Source of the DNA: a virus
Taxonomy: Duplodnaviria; Heunggongvirae; Uroviricota; Caudoviricetes
Direction: 5' to 3' (one strand)
IMG/VR virus record: IMGVR_UViG_2711768019_000014
Length of the DNA: 38,087 nt
Shown: piece by piece, positions 1,032-38,087 of the stretch
How positions within the stretch are numbered: the first letter of the stretch is position 1
Layout: each line of letters opens with the position of its first letter
The notes under the pieces: generated by a model
Told to the model about the DNA's origin: nothing
Databases searched by the model: none
The model's input: the letters and a program-made list of their open reading frames with translations, nothing else
Translations under genes and position numbers: made by a program

Positions 1032-4000
1032 TCAACGAATACTGATGCCGGAAGCGGCTTTTTTGGTCACAATCACCGTACAGTCGGTGATATTGCCTGC
1101 CCCCTGATTGCCTTTCTGGAAAATCTTAAACTCCAGAGTGACGCTTCCCCTGCCACTCGGCATATCAATAACTGCACTGTAACTACCGGGAATGGCCCCT
1201 TTAGTTTCTCTGGATGCGATTAATACGCCGTTTTTGCGAACTTCAAAACCATAACCCGTGTATCGCGTGCCTCCTGGGTTATTTCCGCTCCCCGGATCGT
1301 CATACGCTATACCGTTAAAAATAATGGGCGGAATAATAATCTGGCGGTCAAAGTTATGATCATCGCTGATGGTGACTGTAACCGTACCGTCTGGTGTTTC
1401 CGTGTTACCCCACGTACCGACTTTTTTCGGGAAGGCTTTTGATACAGCTTTAACGAAATCTCCTCTGACCTGGGTCGCCTCCAGCATGCCCTTAATCGTA
1501 CAGTTCTGGTTAATCGTGACATTGTTGAGCGTCCCTGAATTTGCATTCACATTACCGCTGATATCCGCATTTTTAGCGGTCAGCTTTCCGTCTGGTGTCA
1601 GGGAAAATGCCGGCGGATTTCCACCGCTGGTAATGGTGGGAGCCGTCAGGCGTTTCAGGAACACGTCATTCATGAATATCTGGTTGCCCTGCGCCACAAA
1701 CATCGGCGTTTCATTCCCGTTTGCCGGGTCAATAAACGCGATACGGTTAGCGGCAACCAGAAACTGGCTCAGTTTGCCTTCCTCCGTGTCCTCCATGCTG
1801 AGGCCAATACCCGCGACATAATGTTTGCCGTCTTTGGTCTGCTCAATTTTGACGCCCCACATGGCATTCCACTTATCGTTGGCGTCCTTCCACTCTTTCG
1901 AAAACTCCTCCAGTCTGCTGGCGTTATCCTCCGTCAGGTCGACTTTTTCCAGCAGCTCCTGGCCGAGATGGGATTCGGTTATCTGGCCTTTGAAAAAATC
2001 CAGGTAACCTTCCGCATCATCGCTCGCCCGACCGACAGCCTCCACGAATGCTGATTTGCCGACGGTGTTCACACTGCGGATATAAAAGTAATAATCATGG
2101 CCCGGCTTAATATTGATACTGGCGGCTATCCAGTACAGCCCCGTGCCAAGGTAGCGGGCTGTGGTTTCAACCTGCCTGATATCCGCAATCCGTTTTTCCG
2201 AGAACCAGAACTCAAACTGTACCGTCGGGTCATAAACCGCAAGATGCGGCGTGGCGGTTATCTGAAAATAGCCCGGCGTCAGCTCAATCCGCGACGGCGC
2301 TGCCGGTGCGGCAATCCGGAACGATACCGACGCCGGATCGCCCTGCTGCCCCCACGCATTTACTGCCCGGACTGTCAGCCTGTAGTTCCCCAGAGCCAGT
2401 TGTGTGAAGCGGTAAGTGGTTTCCGTCGTCCGGGCCGTGCTGACCAGCCGCTCACGGCCGTCATCCGCTGCCACGGTCAGGCGAAGCAGGAAGCTCACGC
2501 CCTTCACCACCTTCGGCGTGTCCCAGCGGGCCAGCACCTGGTATTCCCCGCTGTCTGCGGTGACTTCTGCGGTCAGGTGCTGCACCGCTGGCGGCGTGAC
2601 ACCATTTACCGTGCCGCTCTGGTCGCCGTCAAAGTGCGCCCCGTTATCCACGATGGCCTCTTTTTCCGGTACATGCTGCACGGCAGTGATGGCATACGTG
2701 CCGTCGTCGTTCTCACGGATACTCACGCAGCGGAACAGGCGCTGGCGCAGCGTCGGCAGCTTCAGCCCCCATACGCTGTATTCAGCAACGCCGTCAGGAA
2801 CACGGCTCACTTTCACCTTCACGCCGTCGGTGACGGACTGAACCTCCACGCTGACCGGATTGCCACTTCCGTCAACCAGGCTTATCAGCATGGTACCGGA
2901 GGATGGCAGCGTGATTTCACGGTCGAGCGTCAGCGTCCGGGTCTGGCTGTTTACCGCCAGCACGCGCCCGCCGGTGCGGATACCGGCATAGTCATCATCG
3001 CAGATTTCAATGACATCGCCCGGTACATGGCGAAGCCCTTCGGCACCCACGCTGAAGTCCACGGTCTGCGTTTCCAGCAGTTCTGTTTTAATCAGCCANN
3101 NNNNNNNNNNNNNNNNNNNNNNNNNNNNNNNNNNNNNNNNNNNNNNNCTTCGTGACGTTACGACCGTAACGGGCAATGGCCTGCGTGTCCTCCACAAGCT
3201 CTGTCGCCGTCTCCCAGCCGTTATTCGGGTCAATCCAGTTCACCTCAACGGCATTATGGCGGTCCTTCAGGGCGCTGAAGCTGTAGCGGAACGGCGCACC
3301 ATCATCCGGCATCACCACATTACTGCGGTTATAGGTCCACACCTTATCCGACGGTCGGTCCTGCACGAACGTCAGCGTCTGCCCGTTCCATACCGGCATA
3401 CAGCGCATCGCCGAGCAGAAATCACTGAGCACATCCCACGCCTTGCGCTGTGTGGTCAGGTACGCATTACAGGTGATGCGCNNNNNNNNNNNNNNNNNNN
3501 NNNNNNNNNNNNNNNNNNNNNNNNNNNNNNNNNNNNNNNNNNNNNNNNNNNNNNNNNNNNNNNNNNNNNNNNNNNNNNNNNNNNNNNNNNNNNNNNNNNN
3601 NNNNNNNNNNNNNNNNNNNNNNNNNNNNNNNNNNNNNNNNNNNNNNNNNNNNNNNNNNNNNNNNNNNNNNNNNNNNNNNNNNNNNNNNNNNNNNNNNNNN
3701 NNNNNNNNACGGCACCTGCAGAATGCGCCCGCGCAGATGATAATTACGGCTCACCTGCTGGCTGCCGAACTGCTCCGAATCCACCTGCACGCCGACCAGT
3801 GCCGTGTTCGGGTAGCACTGTTTCACATCGATGATTTCGGTGTATGACGACCAGAGCGTTTTGTTCTGCAGCTGGTCTGTGGTGCTGTCCGGCGTCATCC
3901 TGCGCATCCGTATATTGAACGGGCGCGGCGGCAGGTTACCCACCACCACCGAGGCCAGATACTGCGAGGTGGTTTTGCCCTTAATGGTGATGTCTTTTTC

Positions 4001-5155: not shown

Positions 5156-5822
5156 TTGTCGGTATACCTCTCTCGTTTGCTCAGTTGTTCAGGAATATGG
5201 TGCAGCAGCTCGCCGTCACCACAGTAAATGGCGGCATGATTCGGCACCGATGAACCAAAACAGCACAGCAGCACATCGCCCGGCTGCGCCGCTGACAACG
5301 GCACCTGATACAGCCCTGTANNNNNNNNNNNNNNNNNNNNNNNNNNNNNNNNNNNNNNNNNNNNNNNNNNNNNNNNNNNNNNNNNNNNNNNNNNNNNNNN
5401 NNNNNNNNNNNNNNNNNNNNNNNNNNNNNNNNNNNNNNNNNNNNNNNNNNNNNNNNNNNNNNNNNNNNNNNNNNNNNNNNNNNNNNNNNNNNNNNNNNNN
5501 NNNNNNNNNNNNNNNNNNNNNNNNNNNNNNNNNNNNNNNNNNNNNNNNNNNNNNNNNNNNNNNNNNNNNNNNNNNNNNNNNNNNNNNNNNNNNNNNNNNN
5601 NNNNNNNNNNNNNNNNNNNNNNNNNNNNNNNNNNNNNNNNNNNNNNNNNNNNNNNNNNNNNNNNNNNNNNNNNNNNNNNNNNNNNNNNNNNNNNNNNNNN
5701 NNNNNNNNNNNNNNNNNNNNNNNNNNNNNNNNNNNNNNNNNNNNNNNNNNNNNNNNNNNNNNNNNNNNNNNNNNNGCACATCGCCGGGCGTGCGCCAGAA
5801 TCGCTGATTCTGTCTGTGTCAT
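5053..5822 (-). CDS. K: Tail assembly protein K (NlpC/P60-type cysteine peptidase domain); interrupted by an N-masked block
   Basis: N-terminus MTQTESAILAHARRC before the mask; C-terminal part carries a Cys/His motif (VLLCCFGSSVPNHAAIYCGDGELLHH); position between L and I. Confidence 0.8.
5321..5775. other. N-masked block (455 nt) inside K
   Basis: Run of n. Confidence 1.
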
Positions 5823-5827
5823 GGGAT

Positions 5828-6573
5828 TTACTGCGAAAGTTTGTTAATGGAAAGGAAGCCGCCAAAGTTGCCGACGTTATTGCGAAACTTACAGCCGCTC
5901 AGGCATTTGCTGCATTTATCCTTCGTGATATCGGACGTCGGCTGATCATATTCATCCGCGACCGCCGGACCGTGATAACCGCACTCATCGCCGCGATAGG
6001 TCCAGGTGCAGGTGTTGGCCAGCATGATACGTCCCGGAAAAACGGCACCGTCCGTTTCCGTCNNNNNNNNNNNNNNNNNNNNNNNNNNNNNNNNNNNNNN
6101 NNNNNNNNNNNNNNNNNNNNNNNNNNNNNNNNNNNNNNNNNNNNNNNNNNNNNNNNNNNNNNNNNNNNNNNNNNNNNNNNNNNNNNNNNNNNNNNNNNNN
6201 NNNNNNNNNNNNNNNNNNNNNNNNNNNNNNNNNNNNNNNNNNNNNNNNNNNNNNNNNNNNNNNNNNNNNNNNNNNNNNNNNNNNNNNNNNNNNNNNNNNN
6301 NNNNNNNNNNNNNNNNNNNNNNNNNNNNNNNNNNNNNNNNNNNNNNNNNNNNNNNNNNNNNNNNNNNNNNNNNNNNNNNNNNNNNNNNNNNNNNNNNNNN
6401 NNNNNNNNCTGTCGCCCCTGCCAGGTGACCGGCTCACCTTTTTCGTTCTGCTCATTACAGAAAAAATAACGTTCTCCACCGACCTCTGTCAGATCGATTT
6501 CCCAGAGCACCACCTGGGCTGACTGAGTGAGGCGTGTCGTCTCATGATGTGTTTCCTGTGGAATATCCTGCAT
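5828..6573 (-). CDS. L: Minor tail protein L; interrupted by an N-masked block
   Basis: N-terminal segment MQDIPQETHHETT... and a Cys-rich C-terminal segment (CTWTYRGDECGYHGPAVADEYDQPTSDITKDKCSKCLSGC) lie in different frames either side of the mask; position between M and K. Confidence 0.8.
6063..6408. other. N-masked block (346 nt) inside L
   Basis: Run of n. Confidence 1.
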
Positions 6574-21385: not shown

Positions 21386-21776
21386 NNNNNNNNNNNNNNN
21401 NNNNNNNNNNNNNNNNNNNNNNNNNNNNNNNNNNNNNNNNNNNNNNNNNNNNNNNNNNNNNNNNNNNNNNNNNNNNNNNNNNNNNNNNNNNNNNNNNNNN
21501 NNNNNNNNNNNNNNNNNNNNNNNNNNNNNNNNNNNNNNNNNNNNNNNNNNNNNNNNNNNNNNNNNNNNNNNNNNNNNNNNNNNNNNNNNNNNNNNNNNNN
21601 NNNNNNNNNNNNNNNNNNNNNNNNNNNNNNNNNNNNNNNNNNNNNNNNNNNNNNNNNNNNNNNNNNNNNNNNNNNNNNNNNNNNNNNNNNNNNNNNNNNN
21701 NNNNNNNNNNNNNNNNNNNNNNNNNNNNNNNNNNNNNNNNNNNNNNNNNNNNNNNNNNNNNNNNNNNNNNNNNNNN
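21386..21776. other. N-masked block (391 nt) covering most of the holin and the holin-lysozyme junction
   Basis: Run of n. Confidence 1.
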
Positions 21777-29747: not shown

Positions 29748-30576
29748 GACGATGCCCTCCGCTGATATTCAGGAGACGGTGAATATGAAAATTAGCCTTA
29801 TCCGCCAGACGAATACGTTCAGCTTGCAAGTTAAGAAGGGTTTCTACCAGAACCTGATGTGCCTGCGGATCCGAAAGAGTTACCTTGCGCAGAGCACGTA
29901 GTGCAGTTGTTACATAACTGAGTTTATGTAAGTCTTCATCATTCAGACGAGTGAGGGCTGGGACAGTAGCCATGATGGCAGCCTCCTTGATCGGTGAAAT
30001 ACTTCCACCACCGGAAACGCCAATTTCGCTGGTGGTGAACTGAACGGGGTTGGCGTAACCGGTGATCAAGGAAACCGGCGCATCTTTCGATGCCCCCGCC
30101 CAGCCCACCATAACTTTGATGTGAGCAAATGCGGACGATAAAAAAGACGCTGGCGCGTCATATATCGCCTTGATCAATTCCAGGACGCCAATCCCGGCAC
30201 CCGCTTTATAAGGTGCCTGAACAGTGTAACGTCCCGGAATGGCAGAATCAATGTGCTGGTGGTCCTTCACACTCAACAAAATCACGCCTGAATTTCCACA
30301 AAGGACTAAAGCACTCATGCGGGTAGTCTTTGCGAAGATAGATAACGCGCTGTGTTTCTGGCTCCCAACGAATAACATGAACATAAAGTCCTCTTCCGTC
30401 ACGAAACCAGCGGTTAAGTTCCTGCACAACTCGCCCCCCACAGTCAGGTAAAGTTCTCTGTGGTTACTTACAGCCAGGTGATTTGGTAATCTGCATTCAT
30501 GCCGTAACAACAGGTGTTCAGCGACGCTGACCACCAGCTGTTGCGACAAACGGTTATTTGCCGTTAAACTGTTCAT
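29740..30576 (-). CDS. Hypothetical early protein (278 aa)
   Basis: Long ORF coupled to its neighbours; no motif recognised. Confidence 0.5.
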   Translation of the reverse strand: MNSLTANNRLSQQLVVSVAEHLLLRHECRLPNHLAVSNHRELYLTVGGELCRNLTAGFVTEEDFMFMLFVGSQKHSALSIFAKTTRMSALVLCGNSGVILLSVKDHQHIDSAIPGRYTVQAPYKAGAGIGVLELIKAIYDAPASFLSSAFAHIKVMVGWAGASKDAPVSLITGYANPVQFTTSEIGVSGGGSISPIKEAAIMATVPALTRLNDEDLHKLSYVTTALRALRKVTLSDPQAHQVLVETLLNLQAERIRLADKANFHIHRLLNISGGHRHA

Positions 30577-31458: not shown

Positions 31459-32133
31459 ATGAAAACAGTCCATGACATCCGGCGGTCTAACGCCAGAAAA
31501 CTGAGAGATGGTGTTGGCGGGAATTCTTCCTTTGCCACCATGATTGATCGCGAGCCAACCCAGACCAGCAGGTTTATGGGAGATGGTGCAACTAAAAATA
31601 TCGGTGACAGCATGGCACGGCACATCGAAAAATGTTTCGACCTGCCTGTCGGATGGCTTGATCAAGAACACCAGACAACGAACATCACAAAAAAACCTGA
31701 CGTTTCAATCACTAACAAACAAATAACGTTAGTCCCTGTCATATCATGGGTACAGGCCGGAGCATGGAAAGAAGTTGGCTATTCTGAGGTTGATTTGAGC
31801 ACAGCAGAAACTTATCCCTGCCCTGTACCCTGTGGCGAAATGACTTATATCTTGCGGGTGATTGGTGATTCAATGATTGATGAGTACCGCCCGGGAGACA
31901 TGATTTTTGTTGATCCTGAAGTCCCTGCCTGCCACGGTGACGACGTTATTGCATTGATGCACGATACAGGCGAAACCACCTTCAAGCGGTTGATAGAAGA
32001 TGGAACACAGCGTTATCTCAAAGCATTAAACCCAAACTGGCCTGAGCCTTACATTAAGATTAACGGTAATTGCTCTATAATTGGTACAGTGATTTTCTCA
32101 GGAAAACCAAGAAGATACATAATAAAGGCCTAA
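31459..32133 (+). CDS. CI-type prophage repressor with S24 (LexA-like) autopeptidase domain
   Basis: 224 aa; N-terminal HTH region; Ala-Gly cleavage site (VQAGAW); Ser nucleophile in VIGDSM and downstream Lys (TFKRL). Confidence 0.85.
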   Translation: MKTVHDIRRSNARKLRDGVGGNSSFATMIDREPTQTSRFMGDGATKNIGDSMARHIEKCFDLPVGWLDQEHQTTNITKKPDVSITNKQITLVPVISWVQAGAWKEVGYSEVDLSTAETYPCPVPCGEMTYILRVIGDSMIDEYRPGDMIFVDPEVPACHGDDVIALMHDTGETTFKRLIEDGTQRYLKALNPNWPEPYIKINGNCSIIGTVIFSGKPRRYIIKA

Positions 32134-32145
32134 TCAATATTTATA

Positions 32146-32167
32146 ACCTGCTTCGGCAGGTTTTTTT
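32146..32167 (+). terminator. Rho-independent terminator after the repressor gene
   Basis: acctgc-ttcg-gcaggt followed by T7. Confidence 0.6.
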
Positions 32168-32171
32168 ATAC

Positions 32172-32200
32172 TTGACAATGTACCTTTGGGATACATAATG
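32172..32200 (+). promoter_or_regulatory. Strong sigma70-like promoter (pL-like) overlapped by an operator-like palindrome
   Basis: TTGACA-N16-CATAAT; the spacer contains TGTACC-tttg-GGATACA, matching the operator motif in the cro/repressor intergenic region. Confidence 0.55.
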
Positions 32201-32682
32201 TATCTAAAAGAAACACAGCACAGGCAAGATTAAACAAAATTTGGTTGTAACACGGCGTATGGCACATGCGTCGTTAGCGGTCTGGGGACGTTAAAGGGGA
32301 CAATCCACTCCTTGCTCGGGCAAACAAACCAGGTAGCCGGAATGTGCAAGTCAATGATGATGCTGATAAGACGCCTAACCAGCGTGGCGATTCGGTTTGA
32401 CGCCTGGGAAGAGACCAGGGTGCAACGATGAGGACATTTATGGAACCGCGACAAAGTGTGGTGCCGTAACTGGCTAAGTGCTCTCAGCGTTGTGGTGAAT
32501 GCGCAGGCTGATGCGCGAAAGACATTGCAGCTAATGCGGAAAAGAGCTGTTCGGCGGGGCAATTAAACGCCCGTGAGAGTCTGAAATAACCGCAAGCCGG
32601 AGATCAGCACCGGTCACCACAACAGCCACTGCTTTGGCGGTACCAGTTTGTACACTTGCTTCCGGCTGGTACCGCTCTTTTT
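32201..32682 (+). ncRNA. Candidate noncoding leader RNA or regulatory leader (no credible ORF), ending at a terminator-like hairpin
   Basis: About 480 nt between the promoter and a GCGGTACCAG-N19-CTGGTACCGC hairpin followed by TCTTTTT; only very short ORFs without Shine-Dalgarno sequences. Confidence 0.3.
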
Positions 32683-32771
32683 ACAAAACAGAGAAGAGCA
32701 TCACCGGACGACGGGCTCATAACCAAATCCATCCGGGCGGCTGCCACCGCAGGTGTTCTTCTCTGTTTTGT
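32683..32771 (+). promoter_or_regulatory. Long perfect hairpin in the leader (15-bp stem ACAAAACAGAGAAGA / TCTTCTCTGTTTTGT, about 59-nt loop)
   Basis: Read directly; about 45 nt upstream of the first plus-strand gene; overlaps a boxA-like CGCTCTTTTTACAA. Confidence 0.5.
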
Positions 32772-32819
32772 GGAGAAACCAACCGACCTTGCAGGGTCGA
32801 TATGATTAGGAGCAGCAAA

Positions 32820-33182
32820 ATGGCTAGCGAACGCAGTACTGATGTGCAGGCATTTATTGGGGAGCTGGACGGCGGCGTATTTGAAACCAAAATCGGCGCA
32901 GTTCTCAGTGAAGTCGCTTCCGGTGTGATGAACACGAAAACCAAAGGTAAGGTCTCACTCAACCTGGAAATCGAACCATTTGATGAGAACCGTGTGAAAA
33001 TCAAACACAAACTCTCATATGTTCGCCCGACTAACCGCGGGAAAATTTCCGAAGAAGACACCACCGAAACGCCGATGTATGTCAATCGCGGTGGTCGCCT
33101 GACTATTCTGCAGGAAGACCAGGGACAATTACTGACTCTTGCCGGTGAACCTGACGGAAAACTCCGCGCAGCAGGTCATTAA
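32820..33182 (+). CDS. YfdP-like prophage protein (120 aa)
   Basis: AGGAG 8 nt upstream of the ATG; recognised from memory as resembling CPS-53 YfdP. Confidence 0.6.
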   Translation: MASERSTDVQAFIGELDGGVFETKIGAVLSEVASGVMNTKTKGKVSLNLEIEPFDENRVKIKHKLSYVRPTNRGKISEEDTTETPMYVNRGGRLTILQEDQGQLLTLAGEPDGKLRAAGH

Positions 33183-33247
33183 TATCGTTCTTAATTAACC
33201 GATTATTTATCTCATCACTGAATATCTTTATATAGTGAGGACTTATT

Positions 33248-34072
33248 ATGTCTCAGAACTTAGACGCAACCGCAATTAATCAAATCCATGCCCTTATTTC
33301 TGCTCAGGGTGTTAATGAAATTATCAGTAAGATTGGTGCCGATGCTGTGGCATTGCCTGAGAATTTCCGCATTCATGATCTGGAAAAATTAAATTTAAAT
33401 CGTTTCCGTTTCCGTGGTGCGCTTTCCACTGCCAGCATCGATGACTTTACTCGTTATTCTAAAGATCTTGCAGATGAAGGCACCCGCTGCTTTATCGATG
33501 CTGATAATATGCGTGCCGTCAGTGTTCTTAACCTGGGTACTATTGATGAACCAGGTCACGCAGATAACACCGCCACTCTCAAACTGAAAAAGACAGCTCC
33601 GTTCTCTGCTCTGTTGTCTGTTAATGGCGAGCGTAACTCCCAGAAGTCACTGGCAGAATGGATTGAAGACTGGGCCGACTACCTTGTGGGCTTTGATGCT
33701 AATGGTGACGCCATTCAGGCAACCAAAGCGGCTGCGGCGATCCGTAAAATCACAATTGAAGCGAACCAGACCGCTGATTTTGAAGATAATGACTTCAGCG
33801 GCAAACGCTCCCTGATGGAGTCTGTCGAAGCGAAGACCAAAGACATTATGCCAGTGGCATTTGAATTTAAATGCGTTCCGTTTGAAGGTCTGAAAGAACG
33901 TCCGTTTAAATTACGCCTCAGCATTATCACTGGCGATCGTCCTGTACTGGTTCTGCGCATTATTCAGCTGGAAGCGGTACAGGAAGAAATGGCTAACGAA
34001 TTTCGTGATCTGCTTGTTGAGAAATTCAAAGACAGCAAAGTAGAAACCTTTATTGGTACTTTCACCGCCTGA
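33248..34072 (+). CDS. YfdQ-like prophage protein (DUF2303-like, 274 aa)
   Basis: GAGGA Shine-Dalgarno; size and sequence recalled as YfdQ-like. Confidence 0.65.
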
Positions 34073-34248
34073 TTTCATTACTGCAAATGCCCCTGCGGGG
34101 GCATTTACGGAAGCGATAATTTTAACTATTGCCGCCCCTATAAAGAACCATTAAACAATAACGTGACGTAGCTATTGATAGTAAATGAAGCACTTGCAAA
34201 ATAATTGCATTGCGTATATATACACACATGTGTTGTATTACAGCGATA

Positions 34249-35043
34249 ATGGTAAAGCAAATGATTAACTCTGAAGCAATTGAGCAACTAATGTGGCTAT
34301 GGTCCTTATTTGACATTAAATTCTTATCTATTCTTGCCGCTGCCTTCACTATATATTTTGGCGTGCAAAAAATATCAAAAAAGGTGACAGTGTCGTATTC
34401 AGCAAATGCAAGTAGAATATATGACATGCATATATCAACCATAATCCTGAATAATAAAAGAGATAATGCAATTGCTATATCTTCAATCAATATGGAGGTT
34501 GAAGGTAAAGGGATACTACAAGTTATTAAATTTGACTCCCCTCTTCTTTTAAAGAACTATGATTCTTTAAAAGTTGAACCACCAAAATTTAGCAGCCTTT
34601 ACAATAATGATGGCGTAGTTAAGTTAGATATTTCTGATAAGTTTCATTTTTATATAATCACGACATCTGGAGATGAAATTAAATGTATTTCTGAAAATAA
34701 ATATGTAGCACCAAACATGGAAAACAAAATAGCTACAGACATAAGAAAATTTAATGGCATTGTCTTAACAAACAGAATGTCTTATATTTTTTTCTATGCA
34801 AATGACAACGGAGAGAAATACTGCATAATAGATGTTTCATTGTTCATAAATGGTGACAACCCATTTCATTTTAATTTTTTAAAAGAAGATGAATTAAGAG
34901 ATTTTTCTAGCATCCTTATTAGTTACGGATATCACCAACAGTTTAAAAGTTATGCATTGTTTAAAATAGACAACCATCTTGCTCCTTCTTTGGTTTTAAA
35001 TAAATCAATGATAGAAAATAATATTATTGAAATGAATAAGTAA
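34249..35043 (+). CDS. AT-rich membrane-anchored protein of unknown function (start uncertain; ORF opens at 34210)
   Basis: N-terminal transmembrane helix (FLSILAAAFTIYFGV) and a soluble domain of about 220 aa rich in N/K/I; own promoter-like TTGCAA-N17-TATATA at 34194-34222; very low GC. Confidence 0.6.
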   Translation: MVKQMINSEAIEQLMWLWSLFDIKFLSILAAAFTIYFGVQKISKKVTVSYSANASRIYDMHISTIILNNKRDNAIAISSINMEVEGKGILQVIKFDSPLLLKNYDSLKVEPPKFSSLYNNDGVVKLDISDKFHFYIITTSGDEIKCISENKYVAPNMENKIATDIRKFNGIVLTNRMSYIFFYANDNGEKYCIIDVSLFINGDNPFHFNFLKEDELRDFSSILISYGYHQQFKSYALFKIDNHLAPSLVLNKSMIENNIIEMNK

Positions 35044-35079
35044 CTCACCGGGTGCAGCCGGTTATGATGGAGAAATGAT

Positions 35080-35361
35080 ATGAATACCTTGTTTTTACTG
35101 ATGGCTGAATTCAATACCCCAAACATTGAACTCTCAGCAGTTAGTCAAAAATACTTTGGTATGAGTCCAGCCACAGCAGAAGCAAAAGCAAACGCTTGTA
35201 AGTTGCCTGTACCTACATATCGCATCGGTACATCACAAAAAGCAAAACGTTGCATCAATATTCAGGATCTTGCGGAATACATAGACAAAAGACGAGAAGA
35301 AGGACGTATCGAGTGGGAACAGGTCAGAACAGGCAAACAGAAGGGCAAAGAACATCACTAA
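35080..35361 (+). CDS. PrtN-like small DNA-binding protein (excisionase/activator-like)
   Basis: 93 aa; GGAG Shine-Dalgarno; central region KLPVPTYRIGTSQKAKRCINIQDLAEYID resembles PrtN/AlpA-type HTH proteins as I recall them. Confidence 0.55.
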   Translation: MNTLFLLMAEFNTPNIELSAVSQKYFGMSPATAEAKANACKLPVPTYRIGTSQKAKRCINIQDLAEYIDKRREEGRIEWEQVRTGKQKGKEHH

Positions 35362-35396
35362 AGAAAAAACCCGCCTAAAGGCGGGTTTTCAAAAAG
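35362..35396. terminator. Bidirectional rho-independent terminator shared by the convergent plus- and minus-strand operons
   Basis: gaaaaaacccgcc-taaa-ggcgggttttcaaaaa. Confidence 0.65.
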
Positions 35397-35408
35397 CACC
35401 AGCTATGA

Positions 35409-35582
35409 TCATGCTGCTTTGCGACGACGAAGCTTACCCTGCTGCTCTTTACCAGAGACAGTAGCGTGAGTGAACGCATTAGGAGCAGCCTTCATCAGAA
35501 CTTCAACAGCAGCACCCATACCTGCGAATGCTTTCATTGTGTCGAACTTAACCTGTGGCTTGGTTGCTTTTTGATCTTCCAT
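35409..35582 (-). CDS. Small basic protein (57 aa), last gene of the minus-strand operon; absent from the ORF track, which lists only ORFs of 60 aa or more
   Basis: Hand translation MEDQKATKPQVKFDTMKAFAGMGAAVEVLMKAAPNAFTHATVSGKEQQGKLRRRKAA; GGAG 7 nt upstream; ends just before the bidirectional terminator. Confidence 0.45.
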   Translation of the reverse strand: MEDQKATKPQVKFDTMKAFAGMGAAVEVLMKAAPNAFTHATVSGKEQQGKLRRRKAA

Positions 35583-35621
35583 AGAAAACTCCAGAAGCTA
35601 TACCGAAACAATTCCTGTTGT

Positions 35622-36041
35622 TTACTCATCATCAATAGATGATACGCAATATTTATTTTTAAATTTAAGGTTCTTTGGCGTAACTTCATCAGATATATCA
35701 AAACCGTCCAGAATTCTATTGAATGTAGCTTCTGGCATATCATCATGAACGGAAATCTCACCCGATCGCTGCTTTCTAACCATGTTATCCACTCGCCAAA
35801 TTATAGCTTCAGCGTAAACAACATAACTTGGATGCTTGATAAAGCGATGATCACCAGAATTCAAGACGCAAGACGGATCGTGGGGGACACCATCCTTGAT
35901 ACTAGAAATATTAACAACTAAAACACAATAACAATCGTTAACGGGGTAATAAACAGGATCATTACAAATCACATGAAGATGATTGCATGGCCCAGTTGGG
36001 GCAAGCACAGTTCCTTTCCTGTATGGCTGATAATCCGTCAT
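35622..36041 (-). CDS. Hypothetical protein (139 aa), candidate toxin/effector partner of the Panacea-like gene
   Basis: ATGA start/stop overlap with the upstream 66-aa gene; Cys/His-rich N-terminal half; loose resemblance to MazF/PemK-like toxins is a guess only. Confidence 0.55.
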   Translation of the reverse strand: MTDYQPYRKGTVLAPTGPCNHLHVICNDPVYYPVNDCYCVLVVNISSIKDGVPHDPSCVLNSGDHRFIKHPSYVVYAEAIIWRVDNMVRKQRSGEISVHDDMPEATFNRILDGFDISDEVTPKNLKFKNKYCVSSIDDE

Positions 36042-36238
36042 GATAATTGCAAAGAAAATTCCTTAAGTTTCTGAGATTCTTCCATTTTGCCAATTATACG
36101 ATTAGCCTCATCCTCGCTTTTACCCTCACTGATCAGCATTTCTTTCAGGTCTATAGGCTTACGAGAATTGCCAGGATTGTGCCACTCTGGACAAACGCTT
36201 TCTAAATGCGTCATGTTTGCGAGATCAAATCGGTTCAT
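36038..36238 (-). CDS. Hypothetical small protein (66 aa) within the Panacea-like operon
   Basis: Start overlaps the 3' end of the Panacea-like gene; stop overlaps the next start (ATGA). Confidence 0.5.
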   Translation of the reverse strand: MNRFDLANMTHLESVCPEWHNPGNSRKPIDLKEMLISEGKSEDEANRIIGKMEESQKLKEFSLQLS

Positions 36239-36659
36239 ATGCCCATACAGAGAATAGATNNNNNNNNNNNNNNNNNNNNNNNNNNNNNNNNNNNNNNNNN
36301 NNNNNNNNNNNNNNNNNNNNNNNNNNNNNNNNNNNNNNNNNNNNNNNNNNNNNNNNNNNNNNNNNNNNNNNNNNNNNNNNNNNNNNNNNNNNNNNNNNNN
36401 NNNNNNNNNNNNNNNNNNNNNNNNNNNNNNNNNNNNNNNNNNNNNNNNNNNNNNNNNNNNNNNNNNNNNNNNNNNNNNNNNNNNNNNNNNNNNNNNNNNN
36501 NNNNNNNNNNNNNNNNNNNNNNNNNNNNNNNNNNNNNNNNNNNNNNNNNNNGCGGTTAGACAGATAGAGCAGCTTCATCAATTTCAGATATGCCATGCGC
36601 CCACCTCGCTTAAGAAGTAGGTATGCAGCCATTTGAGCTACTTTTTCTTCGCAAAACAT
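36225..36659 (-). CDS. Panacea (DUF4065, SocA-like) domain protein, candidate antitoxin; the middle is N-masked
   Basis: N-terminus MFCEEKVAQMAAYLLLKRGGRMAYLKLMKLLYLSNR matches the Panacea signature (...LKLQKLLY...) as I recall it; GAGG Shine-Dalgarno 8 nt upstream. Confidence 0.6.
   Translation of the reverse strand: MFCEEKVAQMAAYLLLKRGGRMAYLKLMKLLYLSNRXXXXXXXXXXXXXXXXXXXXXXXXXXXXXXXXXXXXXXXXXXXXXXXXXXXXXXXXXXXXXXXXXXXXXXXXXXXXXXXXXXXXXXXXXXXXXXXXXXLFSVWAYEPI
36260..36551. other. N-masked block (292 nt) inside the Panacea-like gene
   Basis: Run of n. Confidence 1.
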
Positions 36660-36763: not shown

Positions 36764-37312
36764 CAACTAGTTACCTTGTTTGTCAAGTTTATAGCTGGCT
36801 TTAATCATGGTCAATTGAAGTGATGAGCAAATGATGCTTTCTAAGAATAACAGGTTCCCAATAGGCTCCCACAAAGTGTATAACTAGTTGTTTTTCAAAA
36901 ACGGTACATCCTATCGAGCATTGGTGCAACGCTAAACCGACCACTCCAGTGAACGTCAGTTTTTTCAGGCATTGCGCTGGTTTGGTTGATTTTTTGCATT
37001 TCAGAATTACCGTGCATTTTCAAATGTAGAGATTATTTTATCGATATATCATGGGGTTATGTTATTCAGCATCACTATTCAGGAGGCTCAATAGCGGGGT
37101 ACTATACCATAACAACAGGAAGCGCCTGTCTCATTGCAAAAGAAAATTGAGATCCTCTCAAGGCATGAAGCTCTCACGAAGTGATGGAAATAATCTTATT
37201 AGCCGTTAACTTTGTTAAGGCCAATGATAAACAATCCAGGTTCGACGATAAATAAAAAATCACACATTAAACTCTGGTGATATATCTCCCTGCTAATAGC
37301 ATTGATAGAGAA

Positions 37313-37379: not shown

Positions 37380-38087
37380 TTATTTCTCCGATTTAACCCC
37401 GAACAAATCATAAATTAATTTAGAAGTGTCTGTAAGTATTTTAATCTCTTCCTTTGAGGTTGGGTCAAACGACTTCGCGAAGCTAATTAATTGTGGTGCA
37501 GCATCTCGCATTTTGCTTAAAATATCAGGATCGAGCGTTCCTTCATTCACCAGATGTGACATCTTATCCAGATAGCCATCAAAATTCATTTCTCCCCCAT
37601 CAGCCAGACGCTTCATCTCTCCCAGGTACTTCTTCATATCACGTTGAGATAATTTTTCAAACTGAGCTTTCAGGTAGCTCTCATTATTTTCATTAATATA
37701 CACTGTTTCTGATAAATCTGCGTAGGCACTAGAATATGAAAGTGAAATTAACAGTGAAGCAAATAATTTTAAGCTGTTGTCATCATGTTCCTGGCAGGCA
37801 TTAACAAACGTTAAAAAACCAGAACCTATTGCTTGAAAATGTATATTCGCTAAAGGTTCATTATCCTTAGATTCCTCATAAAATAGCTGAACCGTGGAGG
37901 GAAGGCCATTCTTAGTTTCTACATCAAAAGTACATTGTTCAATGGGAGTCGCATCTTTATTATCCCCAGGATTACATATACTATTAATCGCGAAATGAAA
38001 AATAGCCCGGTCAACAACTGATGCAATAAAGTCACGATCGTTTAAATCCTCATCAGTGCAATCGTCAATATACTTATTGACCCACAT
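37380..38087 (-). CDS. Hypothetical AT-rich protein (235 aa or more; 5' end at or beyond the window edge)
   Basis: Long minus-strand ORF running to the last base of the window; low GC; no motif recognised. Confidence 0.55.
   Translation of the reverse strand: MWVNKYIDDCTDEDLNDRDFIASVVDRAIFHFAINSICNPGDNKDATPIEQCTFDVETKNGLPSTVQLFYEESKDNEPLANIHFQAIGSGFLTFVNACQEHDDNSLKLFASLLISLSYSSAYADLSETVYINENNESYLKAQFEKLSQRDMKKYLGEMKRLADGGEMNFDGYLDKMSHLVNEGTLDPDILSKMRDAAPQLISFAKSFDPTSKEEIKILTDTSKLIYDLFGVKSEK

What the first reader, a model, noticed from the sequence alone, without database searches (positions are those of the whole stretch)
34100..35043. AT-rich membrane-anchored single-gene moron in the immunity region
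A protein of about 265 aa with one N-terminal transmembrane helix and a soluble domain with no recognisable motifs lies in a sharp GC trough. It has its own promoter-like element (TTGCAA-N17-TATATA) and poor Shine-Dalgarno sequences at all candidate starts. It sits on the repressor-side operon, which is the position where lambdoid phages carry superinfection-exclusion or abortive-infection genes such as rexAB or sieB. The composition indicates separate horizontal acquisition.
Basis: partly seen in the sequence, partly recalled or inferred. Interest (0 to 1): 0.55.

Follow-up and report, generated by a model that had tools for sequence, protein, structure and literature searches.

The report
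AT-rich membrane-anchored prophage cargo gene
A real, horizontally swapped, very AT-rich prophage gene encodes a membrane-anchored protein of an unnamed family that repeatedly sits in known anti-phage "hotspots" of other mobile elements, so it is a reasonable but untested candidate for a new phage-exclusion gene.

Summary
The ORF is real: window 34261-35043 (+), 260 aa, 29% GC against 50.5% for the window, the lowest-GC stretch of its size. It lies on a 932-bp cassette (34116-35047). This cassette replaces the ~3-kb yfdR...exonuclease block found between yfdQ and the PrtN-type excisionase gene in sibling dusA-integrated lambdoid prophages.

It is not in the immunity region. A terminator, a strong promoter-like site and two genes separate it from cI. 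It lies directly upstream of xis, 1.9 kb from attR.

The claimed promoter exists literally but is a weak 8/12 match, no better than chance. There is no terminator of its own.

The protein has one N-terminal membrane helix, with a predicted N-out/C-in topology. An Ig-like beta-sandwich follows, then a confidently modelled C-terminal domain with no PDB fold match. It matches only phrog_14996 (function unknown); Pfam, NCBIfam and PADLOC give nothing.

The family has about 221 clusters in Gammaproteobacteria and is always AT-rich. Members sit in the P2 gpA-gpQ defence hotspot, next to DRT2, near HNH/MazEF/RnlAB genes, or beside xis-int.

dN/dS is 0.24-0.36, so the gene is functional but fast-evolving. 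The best reading is a new membrane-tethered phage-exclusion or abortive-infection protein (confidence 0.45). Function is untested.

The parts
34116..35047 (.). AT-rich cassette (932 bp). It comprises a 145-nt upstream non-coding region, the CDS and 4 nt after the stop. It replaces the ~3-kb yfdR...exonuclease block of sibling prophages.
   Evidence: Homology to K-12 CPS-53 and O157 prophages ends at 34115 and resumes at 35048. The GC trough has the same edges.
34261..35043 (+). CDS of the 260-aa protein (E. coli WP_047654657.1, 'hypothetical protein'). It is a full-length member of phrog_14996.
   Evidence: The start is conserved across genera. dN/dS is 0.24-0.36. The antisense ORF 34122-34490 is not conserved in homologues.
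34297..34365 (+). N-terminal transmembrane helix (residues ~13-35). An acidic, Trp-rich segment precedes it and K37/K40/K41 follow it. Predicted topology is N-out/C-in.
   Evidence: Hydrophobicity and family-wide charge bias: K/R 0.56 on the N side against 2.55 on the C side, with C>N in 88% of 127 members. AF2 helix at 4-38.
34387..34683 (+). Ig-like beta-sandwich domain (residues 43-141). It carries the family's N-K-[KR]-D-[NK] motif (65-69) and the conserved residues P94, K98, S111 and C142.
34717..35040 (+). C-terminal alpha/beta domain (residues 153-260). It is the more variable half of the protein and has no recognisable fold relative.
34194..34222 (+). It matches 8/12 positions and has no T at the last -10 position.
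   Evidence: Sequence. Not reported by the scan. Partly conserved in the Citrobacter cassette.
34221..34250 (+). Alternative promoter-like match, TACACA-N18-GATAAT (9/12). It would give a near-leaderless mRNA. A third match, TTGATA-N16-CAAAAT, lies at 34175-34202.
   Evidence: None exceeds chance expectation.
34085..34105 (+). GC-rich hairpin (9-bp stem, 3-nt loop, no T-run) just after yfdQ. It belongs to the conserved backbone, not to the cassette.
   Evidence: Sequence. Conserved in K-12 and O157 prophages that lack the cassette.
33248..34072 (+). Left flank: yfdQ (DUF2303), a conserved early-left gene.
   Evidence: Pfam E 7.9e-93. Annotation. dN/dS 0.026.
35080..35361 (+). Right flank: PrtN-family / phrog_1300 excisionase gene with a good Shine-Dalgarno (GGAGA at 35069-35073). 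It lies 36 nt after the cassette CDS with no terminator between. A bidirectional terminator follows at 35365-35390.
31459..32199 (+). cI-like repressor (ymfK type, 31459-32133), its terminator (32145-32162) and a strong pL-like promoter match (32172-32199, 11/12). These separate the repressor transcript from the operon that holds the cassette.
36895..37023 (-). Duplicated 5' fragment of dusA that marks the attR end of the prophage. The cassette lies about 1.9 kb inside this end.
   Evidence: ORF translation MKMHGNSEMQKINQTSAMPEKTDVHWSGRFSVAPMLD.... The equivalent 'tRNA-dihydrouridine synthase, incomplete' features appear in sibling genomes. The integrase lies next to intact dusA at the other end.

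Best explanation
The gene is mobile accessory cargo of a dusA-integrated lambdoid prophage. It encodes a new type of membrane-tethered phage-exclusion or abortive-infection protein.

Proposed working, with all steps beyond anatomy inferred:
1. A single N-terminal helix anchors the protein in the inner membrane.
2. The short acidic N-terminus faces outside. The conserved Lys-rich juxtamembrane segment, the Ig-like sandwich and the C-terminal domain lie on the cytoplasmic face.
3. No catalytic motif is present, so the protein most likely acts by binding rather than by catalysis.
4. The variable C-terminal domain would recognise a phage component or an inner-membrane entry factor.
5. The conserved membrane-proximal core would then block genome entry or an early step, or perturb the membrane to abort infection.

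Expression is unresolved. The gene may use a weak promoter inside its own AT-rich leader, which is probably H-NS-sensitive. Alternatively it may be read from the early-left (pL-type) transcript, which continues into xis.
For: SHOWN: a real, selected coding gene.
- Length and architecture are conserved from E. coli to Pseudomonas and Acinetobacter. There are 221 clusters with E<=1e-3, mostly ~240-260 aa.
- dN/dS is 0.24-0.36, against 0.03-0.04 for the flanking genes.

SHOWN: swapped cargo.
- Clean breakpoints and a 29% GC cassette.
- Only 99 of 741 genomes with the same prtN flank carry it.

SHOWN: topology signal.
- Family-wide positive-inside bias.

SHOWN: defence-type neighbourhoods of independent homologues.
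- Three P2-like prophages carry it between portal gpQ and replication gpA. Rousset et al. 2022 validated this locus as an anti-phage hotspot (PMC9122126).
- In two of those it directly follows an AAA_16/NB-ARC NTPase, and RnlAB lies nearby in one.
- In a Pseudomonas island it lies 375 nt from a DRT2 reverse transcriptase, PADLOC E 1.8e-155.
- In another it is separated by one 139-aa gene from an HNH nuclease matching PDC-M68A and CBASS-HNH effectors.
- On an 11-kb Acinetobacter plasmid it sits with MazEF and an HNH_5 protein.
- In this window a Panacea-antitoxin module lies 0.6 kb away.

SHOWN: retention in decayed elements.
- It is kept with xis-int in decayed prophage remnants in Citrobacter and in a truncated E. 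coli prophage.

SHOWN: unequal conservation.
- The C-terminal domain is the more variable part. This fits a specificity domain.
Against: - No experiment or paper links this family to any phenotype.
- It has no hit to any of the 5027 PADLOC models, including candidate families.
- Association was seen in about 10 hand-inspected contexts. It was not tested statistically over the family.
- In Enterobacteriaceae several copies sit among ordinary early genes, in the nin-like region or after replication genes, with no defence neighbour.
- There is no terminator before xis, and no promoter above chance. Constitutive lysogen expression, usual for exclusion genes, is therefore unproven. Expression only during lytic growth is equally compatible.
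- The membrane helix is only moderately hydrophobic and contains D18 and K20.
- It is absent from 50,697 sequenced phage isolates. The carriers may therefore be mostly defective prophages.
Confidence: 0.45

Rival explanations
1. It is an early-lytic accessory gene of the phage: host takeover, counter-defence, or exclusion of secondary infection during lytic growth as with T4 Imm/Sp. It would be transcribed with the pL-type early-left operon, not as a lysogen-expressed protective gene.
For: - It lies co-directionally inside the early-left gene string, downstream of a strong pL-like promoter. It runs into xis with 36 nt and no terminator.
- The same X>xis(>int) arrangement, with 24-36-nt gaps, recurs in three other backbones.
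- It replaces ordinary early genes such as yfdR, Ea22-like and exonuclease.
- No promoter above chance.
Against: - Distant homologues sit in non-phage islands and a small plasmid, where no lytic programme exists.
- Copies are retained in decayed prophages that have lost early promoters.
- Cassettes carry 180-340 nt of their own AT-rich upstream DNA in many contexts.
- Membrane anchoring is unusual for known anti-defence proteins (general knowledge).
Confidence: 0.2
2. It is a lysogenic-conversion factor unrelated to phages. A membrane protein would alter envelope physiology, stress tolerance or host colonisation.
For: - Membrane anchor and Ig-like domain.
- AT-rich cargo near a prophage end, as for many conversion genes.
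- Carried by human and animal isolates, including an O25b:H4 strain.
Against: - The globular domains are predicted to be cytoplasmic.
- No similarity to any virulence or envelope family.
- Neighbours in other elements are defence or toxin-antitoxin genes, not virulence genes.
Confidence: 0.12
3. It is a selfish or silent passenger: an H-NS-silenced gene with no current role for host or phage, or a membrane toxin acting as an addiction or kil-like function.
For: - Extreme AT content is typical of H-NS-silenced DNA (general knowledge).
- Poor Shine-Dalgarno.
- One E. coli genome has an IS1 in the region.
- dN/dS is ten times higher than in the neighbours.
- TA modules are adjacent.
Against: - dN/dS well below 1 and intact full-length ORFs across 221 clusters down to 25% identity argue for maintained function.
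- No cognate small partner gene is conserved next to it.
Confidence: 0.1

Closest known systems
phrog_14996 (PHROGs v4, function unknown)
   Same: Full-length match: residues 18-277 of the long ORF against profile positions 1-260 of 260, E 2.9e-178. This is the same family.
   Different: The PHROG carries no annotation, so membership gives no function.
Cargo of the P2 gpA-gpQ (old/tin) anti-phage hotspot (Rousset et al. 2022, PMC9122126)
   Same: Three distant family members (25-30% identity) occupy exactly this locus in P2-like prophages. They are AT-rich and swappable, and some sit beside NTPase or membrane-protein genes.
   Different: The window's copy is in a lambdoid prophage next to xis, not in P2. 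The family matches none of the PADLOC models scanned, including its candidate families.
Lactococcal prophage Sie2009-type superinfection-exclusion proteins (McGrath 2002, Mahony 2008; recalled from memory, not checked in the paper library)
   Same: A single prophage gene in the lysogeny-side module between repressor and integrase or excisionase. The protein is anchored by one N-terminal membrane helix. The gene is AT-rich accessory cargo.
   Different: No detectable sequence similarity (only phrog_14996 hit). The host is Gram-negative. The domains are predicted cytoplasmic. Lysogen expression and a DNA-injection block are untested.
Lambda RexAB and lambda/P22 SieB
   Same: Lambdoid prophage genes on the repressor or early-left side that exclude other phages and involve the inner membrane.
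   Different: No homology. RexAB is a two-gene system inside the cI transcript, with a multi-pass RexB. Here there is one gene with one helix, beyond the cI terminator and two further genes.
Lactococcus AbiP (membrane-anchored, nucleic-acid-binding abortive-infection protein; recalled from memory)
   Same: A protein of roughly similar size with one N-terminal anchor, a cytoplasmic globular part and no enzymatic motif. This is the architecture predicted here.
   Different: No sequence relation detected. Nucleic-acid binding was not testable here. Different host and element.
Inner-membrane DNA-entry blockers: HK97 gp15, P22 SieA, T4 Imm (recalled from memory)
   Same: Small or medium phage-encoded inner-membrane proteins carried as accessory genes that stop genome entry.
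   Different: From memory, those proteins are smaller or multi-pass, and HK97 gp15 faces the periplasm. This protein has 220 residues of globular domains predicted on the cytoplasmic side.

Membership tests
phrog_14996 | Full-length profile match | tested here: met
   E 2.9e-178, profile positions 1-260 of 260.
Moron (Hendrix/Juhala definition, recalled) | Nucleotide composition different from the surrounding phage genes | tested here: met
   29% GC against 41-50% for neighbours. Lowest stretch in the window, z -3.7.
Moron (Hendrix/Juhala definition, recalled) | Inserted between two genes that are adjacent in related phages | tested here: not met
   In all sibling prophages inspected, yfdQ and prtN/torI are separated by a ~1.5-3-kb block (yfdR...exonuclease, or yfdRST). 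The cassette replaces that block.
Moron (Hendrix/Juhala definition, recalled) | Own promoter | tested here: inconclusive
   Only 8-9/12 sigma-70 matches, not above shuffled expectation. Partial conservation of one block with the Citrobacter copy.
Moron (Hendrix/Juhala definition, recalled) | Own terminator | tested here: not met
   36 nt between the stop codon and the prtN start. No terminator-like site was found there. The short CCGG hairpin belongs to the backbone.
Lambda RexAB | Sequence homology to RexA or RexB; two-gene system; multi-pass RexB | tested here: not met
   No Pfam, PHROG or PADLOC hit other than phrog_14996. Single gene with one hydrophobic helix.
Lambda RexAB | Co-transcribed with cI in the immunity region | tested here: not met
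   Terminator at 32145-32162, a promoter-like site, yfdP and yfdQ all lie between cI and the gene.
SieB (lambda/P22) | Sequence homology to the SieB family | tested here: not met
   No Pfam or PHROG match at E<=0.1.
Known or candidate anti-phage systems in PADLOC-DB v2.0.0 | Match to any of 5027 models | tested here: not met
   No hits for the window protein or for the three distant homologues scanned (the L029 copy, P0165, P0089). Databases newer than 2023 could not be queried.
Defence-island / hotspot cargo (guilt by association) | Recurrent location next to known defence genes or in validated hotspots, in independent elements | tested here: inconclusive
   Met in about 7 of 12 inspected contexts: P2 hotspot three times, DRT2, HNH/PDC-M68A, MazEF+HNH, Panacea TA. 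Not met in nin-like or replication-region copies. No family-wide statistic was computed.
Superinfection-exclusion / abortive-infection proteins (functional class) | Expression in the lysogen and protection against phage challenge | not testable with these tools
   Needs RNA-seq or 5'-RACE and plaque assays.
Single-pass inner-membrane protein, N-out/C-in | One hydrophobic helix, no signal peptide, positive-inside charge bias | tested here: met
   Kyte-Doolittle 1.68 (19-mer) and 2.09 (15-mer). Acidic N-flank and Lys-rich C-flank, with 88% of 127 members biased the same way. This is a prediction only.

The most novel reading that the evidence does not exclude
The protein is the E. coli representative of an unrecognised single-gene anti-phage defence family. 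The family has about 221 50%-identity clusters in Gammaproteobacterial prophages, islands and plasmids. Its architecture is new: an N-out membrane anchor, a cytoplasmic Ig-like sandwich and a C-terminal domain with no known fold relative. It would act at the inner face of the membrane, with the fast-evolving C-terminal domain as the specificity determinant. Its extreme AT content might also make H-NS the switch that keeps it quiet until infection.
Probability: 0.35. Interest if true: 0.6.

Novelty: new variant of a known kind. Interest (0 to 1): 0.42.

Why it matters
If the family does exclude phages, it adds a compact 0.9-kb single-gene system with no relation to catalogued defence families. 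Current defence-annotation tools would miss it.

It is present in about 2% of complete E. coli genomes, including an O25b:H4 clinical strain. That bears on predicting phage susceptibility for therapy.

It also shows that the stretch just upstream of xis in dusA-type lambdoid prophages is a swap site. The adjacent xis-attR stretch is a second variable slot, filled with toxin-antitoxin modules.

If the gene has no such role, the finding is simply one more uncharacterised AT-rich prophage accessory gene.

Tried and rejected
**Family and homology searches that gave nothing**
- Pfam, NCBIfam and PADLOC scans of the protein gave nothing usable. The only Pfam hit was a sub-threshold Ig_TMEM131L_3 match, E 0.011-0.013.
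- A Pfam scan of 80 family members also gave nothing usable.
- A PDB sequence-profile search gave only noise, best E 0.08.
- Megablast and tblastn against 50,697 phage genomes gave no match.

**Structure searches**
- Foldseek against BFVD viral structures gave nothing at E<=1e-3.
- The afdb50 library was not available.

**Searches that failed technically**
- The search for related loci failed with the broad alignment on both collections. With the intermediate alignment it failed on genome contigs, because no stretch was conserved enough. GTDB genomes were therefore never scanned.

**An obligate two-gene system: rejected**
- The upstream partners differ between contexts: a STAND-like NTPase in Pseudomonas, an HNH_5 protein in Acinetobacter, and a 361-aa membrane protein in L029.
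- The two partners compared directly, the Pseudomonas NTPase and the Acinetobacter HNH_5 protein, are unrelated. The L029 partner is unrelated to the family.
- Enterobacterial copies are solitary.

**The antisense ORF 34122-34490 as the real gene: rejected**
- It is not conserved in homologues.

**Candidate papers**
- GiPD474 (PMC12724215) is an ATPase and is unrelated.
- svsR (PMC12803456) is an sRNA at the 3' end of cI. It is not this gene.
- Literature searches by accession and by keywords found no study of this protein.
Full report
**1. The observation**

The region holds one long ORF on the + strand, opening at TTG 34210 and ending at 35043.
- Homologues from Citrobacter, Klebsiella, Raoultella and metagenomes all begin at the position of the ATG at 34261 (MINxK...), giving 260 aa.
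- PHROGs aligns residues 18-277 of the long ORF to all 260 positions of phrog_14996, E 2.9e-178.

The GC trough is real and extreme.
- The CDS is 29.0% GC (GC3 26%). The window is 50.5% and flanking genes are 41-50%.
- It is the lowest of all 783-nt stretches in the window, z = -3.7.

The Shine-Dalgarno is poor at all three candidate starts. The next gene has a good GGAGA.

The promoter-like string TTGCAA-N17-TATATA exists at 34194-34222, but it is weak.
- It matches 8 of 12 positions and lacks the conserved last T of the -10 hexamer.
- The scan tool did not report it. Promoter-like sites in 32100-35700 are not enriched (7 against 9.4 +/- 3.0 in shuffles).
- The AT-rich leaders of all homologues give similar 8-9/12 matches at non-equivalent places.
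- Its only support is partial conservation of the TTGYAA...TATA block in the Citrobacter cassette.

**2. Where it sits**

The window covers most of a lambdoid prophage integrated in dusA.
- The integrase lies next to intact dusA at the far end in a 100%-identical sibling.
- A duplicated dusA 5' fragment at 36895-37023 (-) marks attR.

The order on the + strand is as follows.
- cI-like ymfK (31459-32133)
- an intrinsic terminator (32145-32162)
- an 11/12 sigma-70 match (32172-32199)
- yfdP, then yfdQ (DUF2303)
- the gene
- a PrtN-family / phrog_1300 excisionase gene (35080-35361)
- a bidirectional terminator

This mirrors lambda's layout of cI, terminator and pL operon running to xis. The gene is therefore in the early-left operon region next to xis, not in the immunity region or the cI transcript. 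Only 36 nt and no terminator separate it from the excisionase gene.

**3. It is a swapped cassette**
- Homology to other yfdQ prophages stops at 34115 and resumes at 35048. This delimits a 932-bp cassette whose edges match the GC trough.
- Of 5426 complete E. coli genomes, 741 have this prtN flank and 2763 match the query that spans yfdQ. Only 99 have the cassette, always in this slot and always chromosomal.
- Sibling prophages at the same site carry yfdR, hypotheticals, Ea22-like, methyltransferase or DUF551 genes and a 3'-5' exonuclease between yfdQ and prtN. K-12 CPS-53 has yfdR-yfdS-yfdT-torI.
- The cassette therefore replaces about 3 kb of ordinary early genes. It was not inserted between adjacent genes, and it has no terminator. 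It meets only the composition criterion of a classical moron.

**4. The protein**
- AlphaFold2 with 11 homologues gave pLDDT 80.4 and pTM 0.66. The model has a long helix at residues 4-38, a beta-sandwich at 43-141, a low-confidence linker and an alpha/beta domain at 153-260.
- The helix is moderately hydrophobic: Kyte-Doolittle 1.68 for residues 13-31 and 2.09 for the 15-residue core. It is the only hydrophobic segment.
- Across 127 family members the 15 residues before the helix carry 0.56 K/R and 1.48 D/E. The 15 after it carry 2.55 K/R and 0.41 D/E, and 88% of members are biased this way.
- By the positive-inside rule the globular part is cytoplasmic (N-out/C-in). There is no signal-peptide-like N-region.
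- No Pfam, NCBIfam, PADLOC or PDB-sequence relation exists for the protein or for 80 relatives.
- Conserved positions cluster in the juxtamembrane segment and the sandwich: Y32, K37, the N65-K-[KR]-D68 motif, P94, K98, S111 and C142. Y179, G194 and N205 are conserved in the C-domain, which is otherwise more variable.
- Nothing resembles a catalytic site.

**5. Selection**
- Between E. coli alleles (96-99.5% nucleotide identity) dN/dS is 0.24-0.36. The same genome pair gives 0.026 for yfdQ and 0.041 for prtN.
- The gene is under purifying selection but evolves about ten times faster at the protein level than its neighbours.
- 12 of the 18 substitutions fall in the linker and C-terminal domain (residues 148-227).
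- The 122-aa antisense ORF is not conserved elsewhere.

**6. The family and its neighbourhoods**

A profile search of 1.84 billion representatives found 221 clusters at E<=1e-3, mostly of about 240-260 aa and, in the 127 members of near full length (225-290 aa), with an N-terminal hydrophobic helix. All named members are Gammaproteobacteria. The nine divergent copies measured in viral contigs are 25-33% GC in loci of 42-51%.

Contexts inspected:
- a. Directly upstream of xis-int in three other prophage backbones, and in decayed Citrobacter remnants.
- b. A nin-like or replication region in Klebsiella and Raoultella prophages.
- c. Three P2-like prophages, between portal gpQ and replication gpA. 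This is the cos-proximal locus that holds old/tin in P2 and was validated as a defence hotspot (PMC9122126). In the two Pseudomonas cases the gene follows a 455-aa AAA_16/NB-ARC NTPase by 41-49 nt. RnlAB lies nearby in one.
- d. A Pseudomonas integrative island, 375 nt downstream of a DRT2 reverse transcriptase, PADLOC E 1.8e-155.
- e. A Pseudomonas islet beside a Dus gene, one 139-aa gene away from an HNH nuclease that matches PDC-M68A and CBASS HNH effectors.
- f. An 11-kb Acinetobacter plasmid, with MazEF and an HNH_5 protein.
- g. Beside a 2481-aa polyvalent protein in Salinicola.

The partners differ and, where compared, are unrelated. The gene therefore behaves as an independent module that co-locates with defence and toxin-antitoxin cargo, not as part of a fixed operon. 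In this window a Panacea-antitoxin module lies between prtN and attR. That slot is itself variable: siblings hold a different Panacea pair or a YafO toxin pair there.

**7. Interpretation**

The best-supported reading is prophage-borne accessory cargo encoding a new membrane-tethered phage-exclusion or abortive-infection protein. It would act by binding at the cytoplasmic face of the inner membrane.
- Shown: coding status, cassette nature, architecture, predicted topology and neighbourhoods.
- Inferred: the defence function, the binder mode of action and the role of the C-terminal domain.
- I put 0.45 on the defence class as a whole. I cannot separate entry block from abortive infection.

The main rival (0.2) is an early-lytic function.
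- The gene is embedded in the early-left operon and reads into xis, and no promoter stands out.
- Against it, relatives occur in islands and a plasmid with no lytic programme, and in decayed prophages.

Lysogenic conversion unrelated to phages (0.12) and a silent or addictive passenger (0.1) are less likely.

**8. Comparison with known systems and novelty**
- By function the protein would resemble Sie2009-type lactococcal exclusion proteins, AbiP, SieA/SieB, HK97 gp15 or T4 Imm. These resemblances are recalled from memory.
- It is not a member of any of them. No homology was detected, and the RexAB and SieB defining features that could be tested were not met.
- It is a member of phrog_14996, which has no assigned function.
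- I found no paper on it.
- I rate it a new variant of a known kind: prophage accessory membrane proteins likely used in phage-phage conflict.
- Interest is moderate. An uncharacterised AT-rich prophage gene is unsurprising, but the recurrent hotspot placement, the unmatched C-terminal fold and the small size make it a cheap, testable candidate.

**9. Limits**
- There are no expression data.
- The association evidence comes from about 12 hand-inspected contexts.
- The AFDB fold library was unavailable and GTDB genomes were never scanned.
- Defence databases newer than PADLOC v2 (2023) could not be queried.

Noticed in passing
window 35409-36659 (-): Four minus-strand ORFs lie between the excisionase gene and attR: a Panacea-domain (antitoxin-type) gene at 36225-36659, interrupted by the N-run 36260-36551, then ORFs of 66, 139 (phrog_19071) and 57 aa. 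They look like a PanA-type toxin-antitoxin module. Sibling prophages hold a different Panacea pair, a YafO-toxin pair or a single hypothetical in the same slot, so this is a second variable cargo site. No PADLOC hit for the 139- or 66-aa proteins.
   Followed up: partly
window 30028-30216 (-): Rfam finds a C4 antisense RNA (82 bits, E 1.6e-15) and an isrK Hfq-binding RNA (64 bits, E 2.6e-12) side by side, both above gathering score. This is a P1/P7-type antisense control element inside the early-right region of this lambdoid prophage.
   Followed up: no
window 32134-32819: There is a ~690-nt stretch with no intact gene between cI and yfdP. It holds a clean terminator (32145-32162), immediately followed by the best sigma-70 match of the region (TTGACA-16-CATAAT, 32172-32199), and then 54% GC sequence. 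Sibling genomes annotate a frameshifted hypothetical just upstream of yfdP. It probably contains the pL-equivalent promoter and leader.
   Followed up: partly
window ~32060-32165 (+), 3' end of the ymfK-like cI gene: A 2026 paper reports a protective sRNA (svsR, co293-like) encoded at the 3' end of cI in a lambdoid prophage, and a related sRNA in e14, whose repressor is ymfK (PMC12803456). This window's repressor is ymfK-like and ends in a strong hairpin, so a homologous sRNA may be present. Not tested.
   Followed up: no
window 36895-37023 (-): A short ORF translates to the N-terminus of DusA. It is the duplicated target fragment that marks attR of a dusA-integrating prophage. DUF2713 (37380-38087) and zur follow, as in sibling genomes.
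   Followed up: yes
window 3099-3147, 3482-3708, 5321-5775, 6063-6408, 21386-21776, 36260-36551: Six runs of N (1760 bases in all) mask parts of the window. One of them removes most of the Panacea-domain gene.
   Followed up: no
L040 (NZ_CP015085.1 3208707-3210606), sibling prophage outside the window: In the O25b:H4 sibling, a reverse-transcriptase gene and a SLATT-domain gene sit between the tail-fibre genes and the integrase. The attL end of this prophage type therefore also carries defence-like cargo.
   Followed up: no
NZ_CP121157.1 4392524-4394279 (hit H1): In E. coli strain E89 the 980-nt cassette region is split by an IS1X2 insertion. This is the only one of the 15 listed hits matched in two pieces.
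   Followed up: no
L030 8589-9959 and L031 8584-9951: Two Pseudomonas P2-like prophages carry a ~455-aa AAA_16/NB-ARC (STAND-like) NTPase with no obvious effector domain, 41-49 nt upstream of the family member, in the gpA-gpQ hotspot. It hits the PADLOC candidate PDC-S59 only weakly (E 1e-6 to 1e-7). It could form a two-gene system in that branch.
   Followed up: partly
L034/L035 16352-16612: The Klebsiella prophage that carries a family member also encodes an Acb2/Tad1-hairpin protein (an anti-CBASS/Thoeris sponge family) among its head genes.
   Followed up: no
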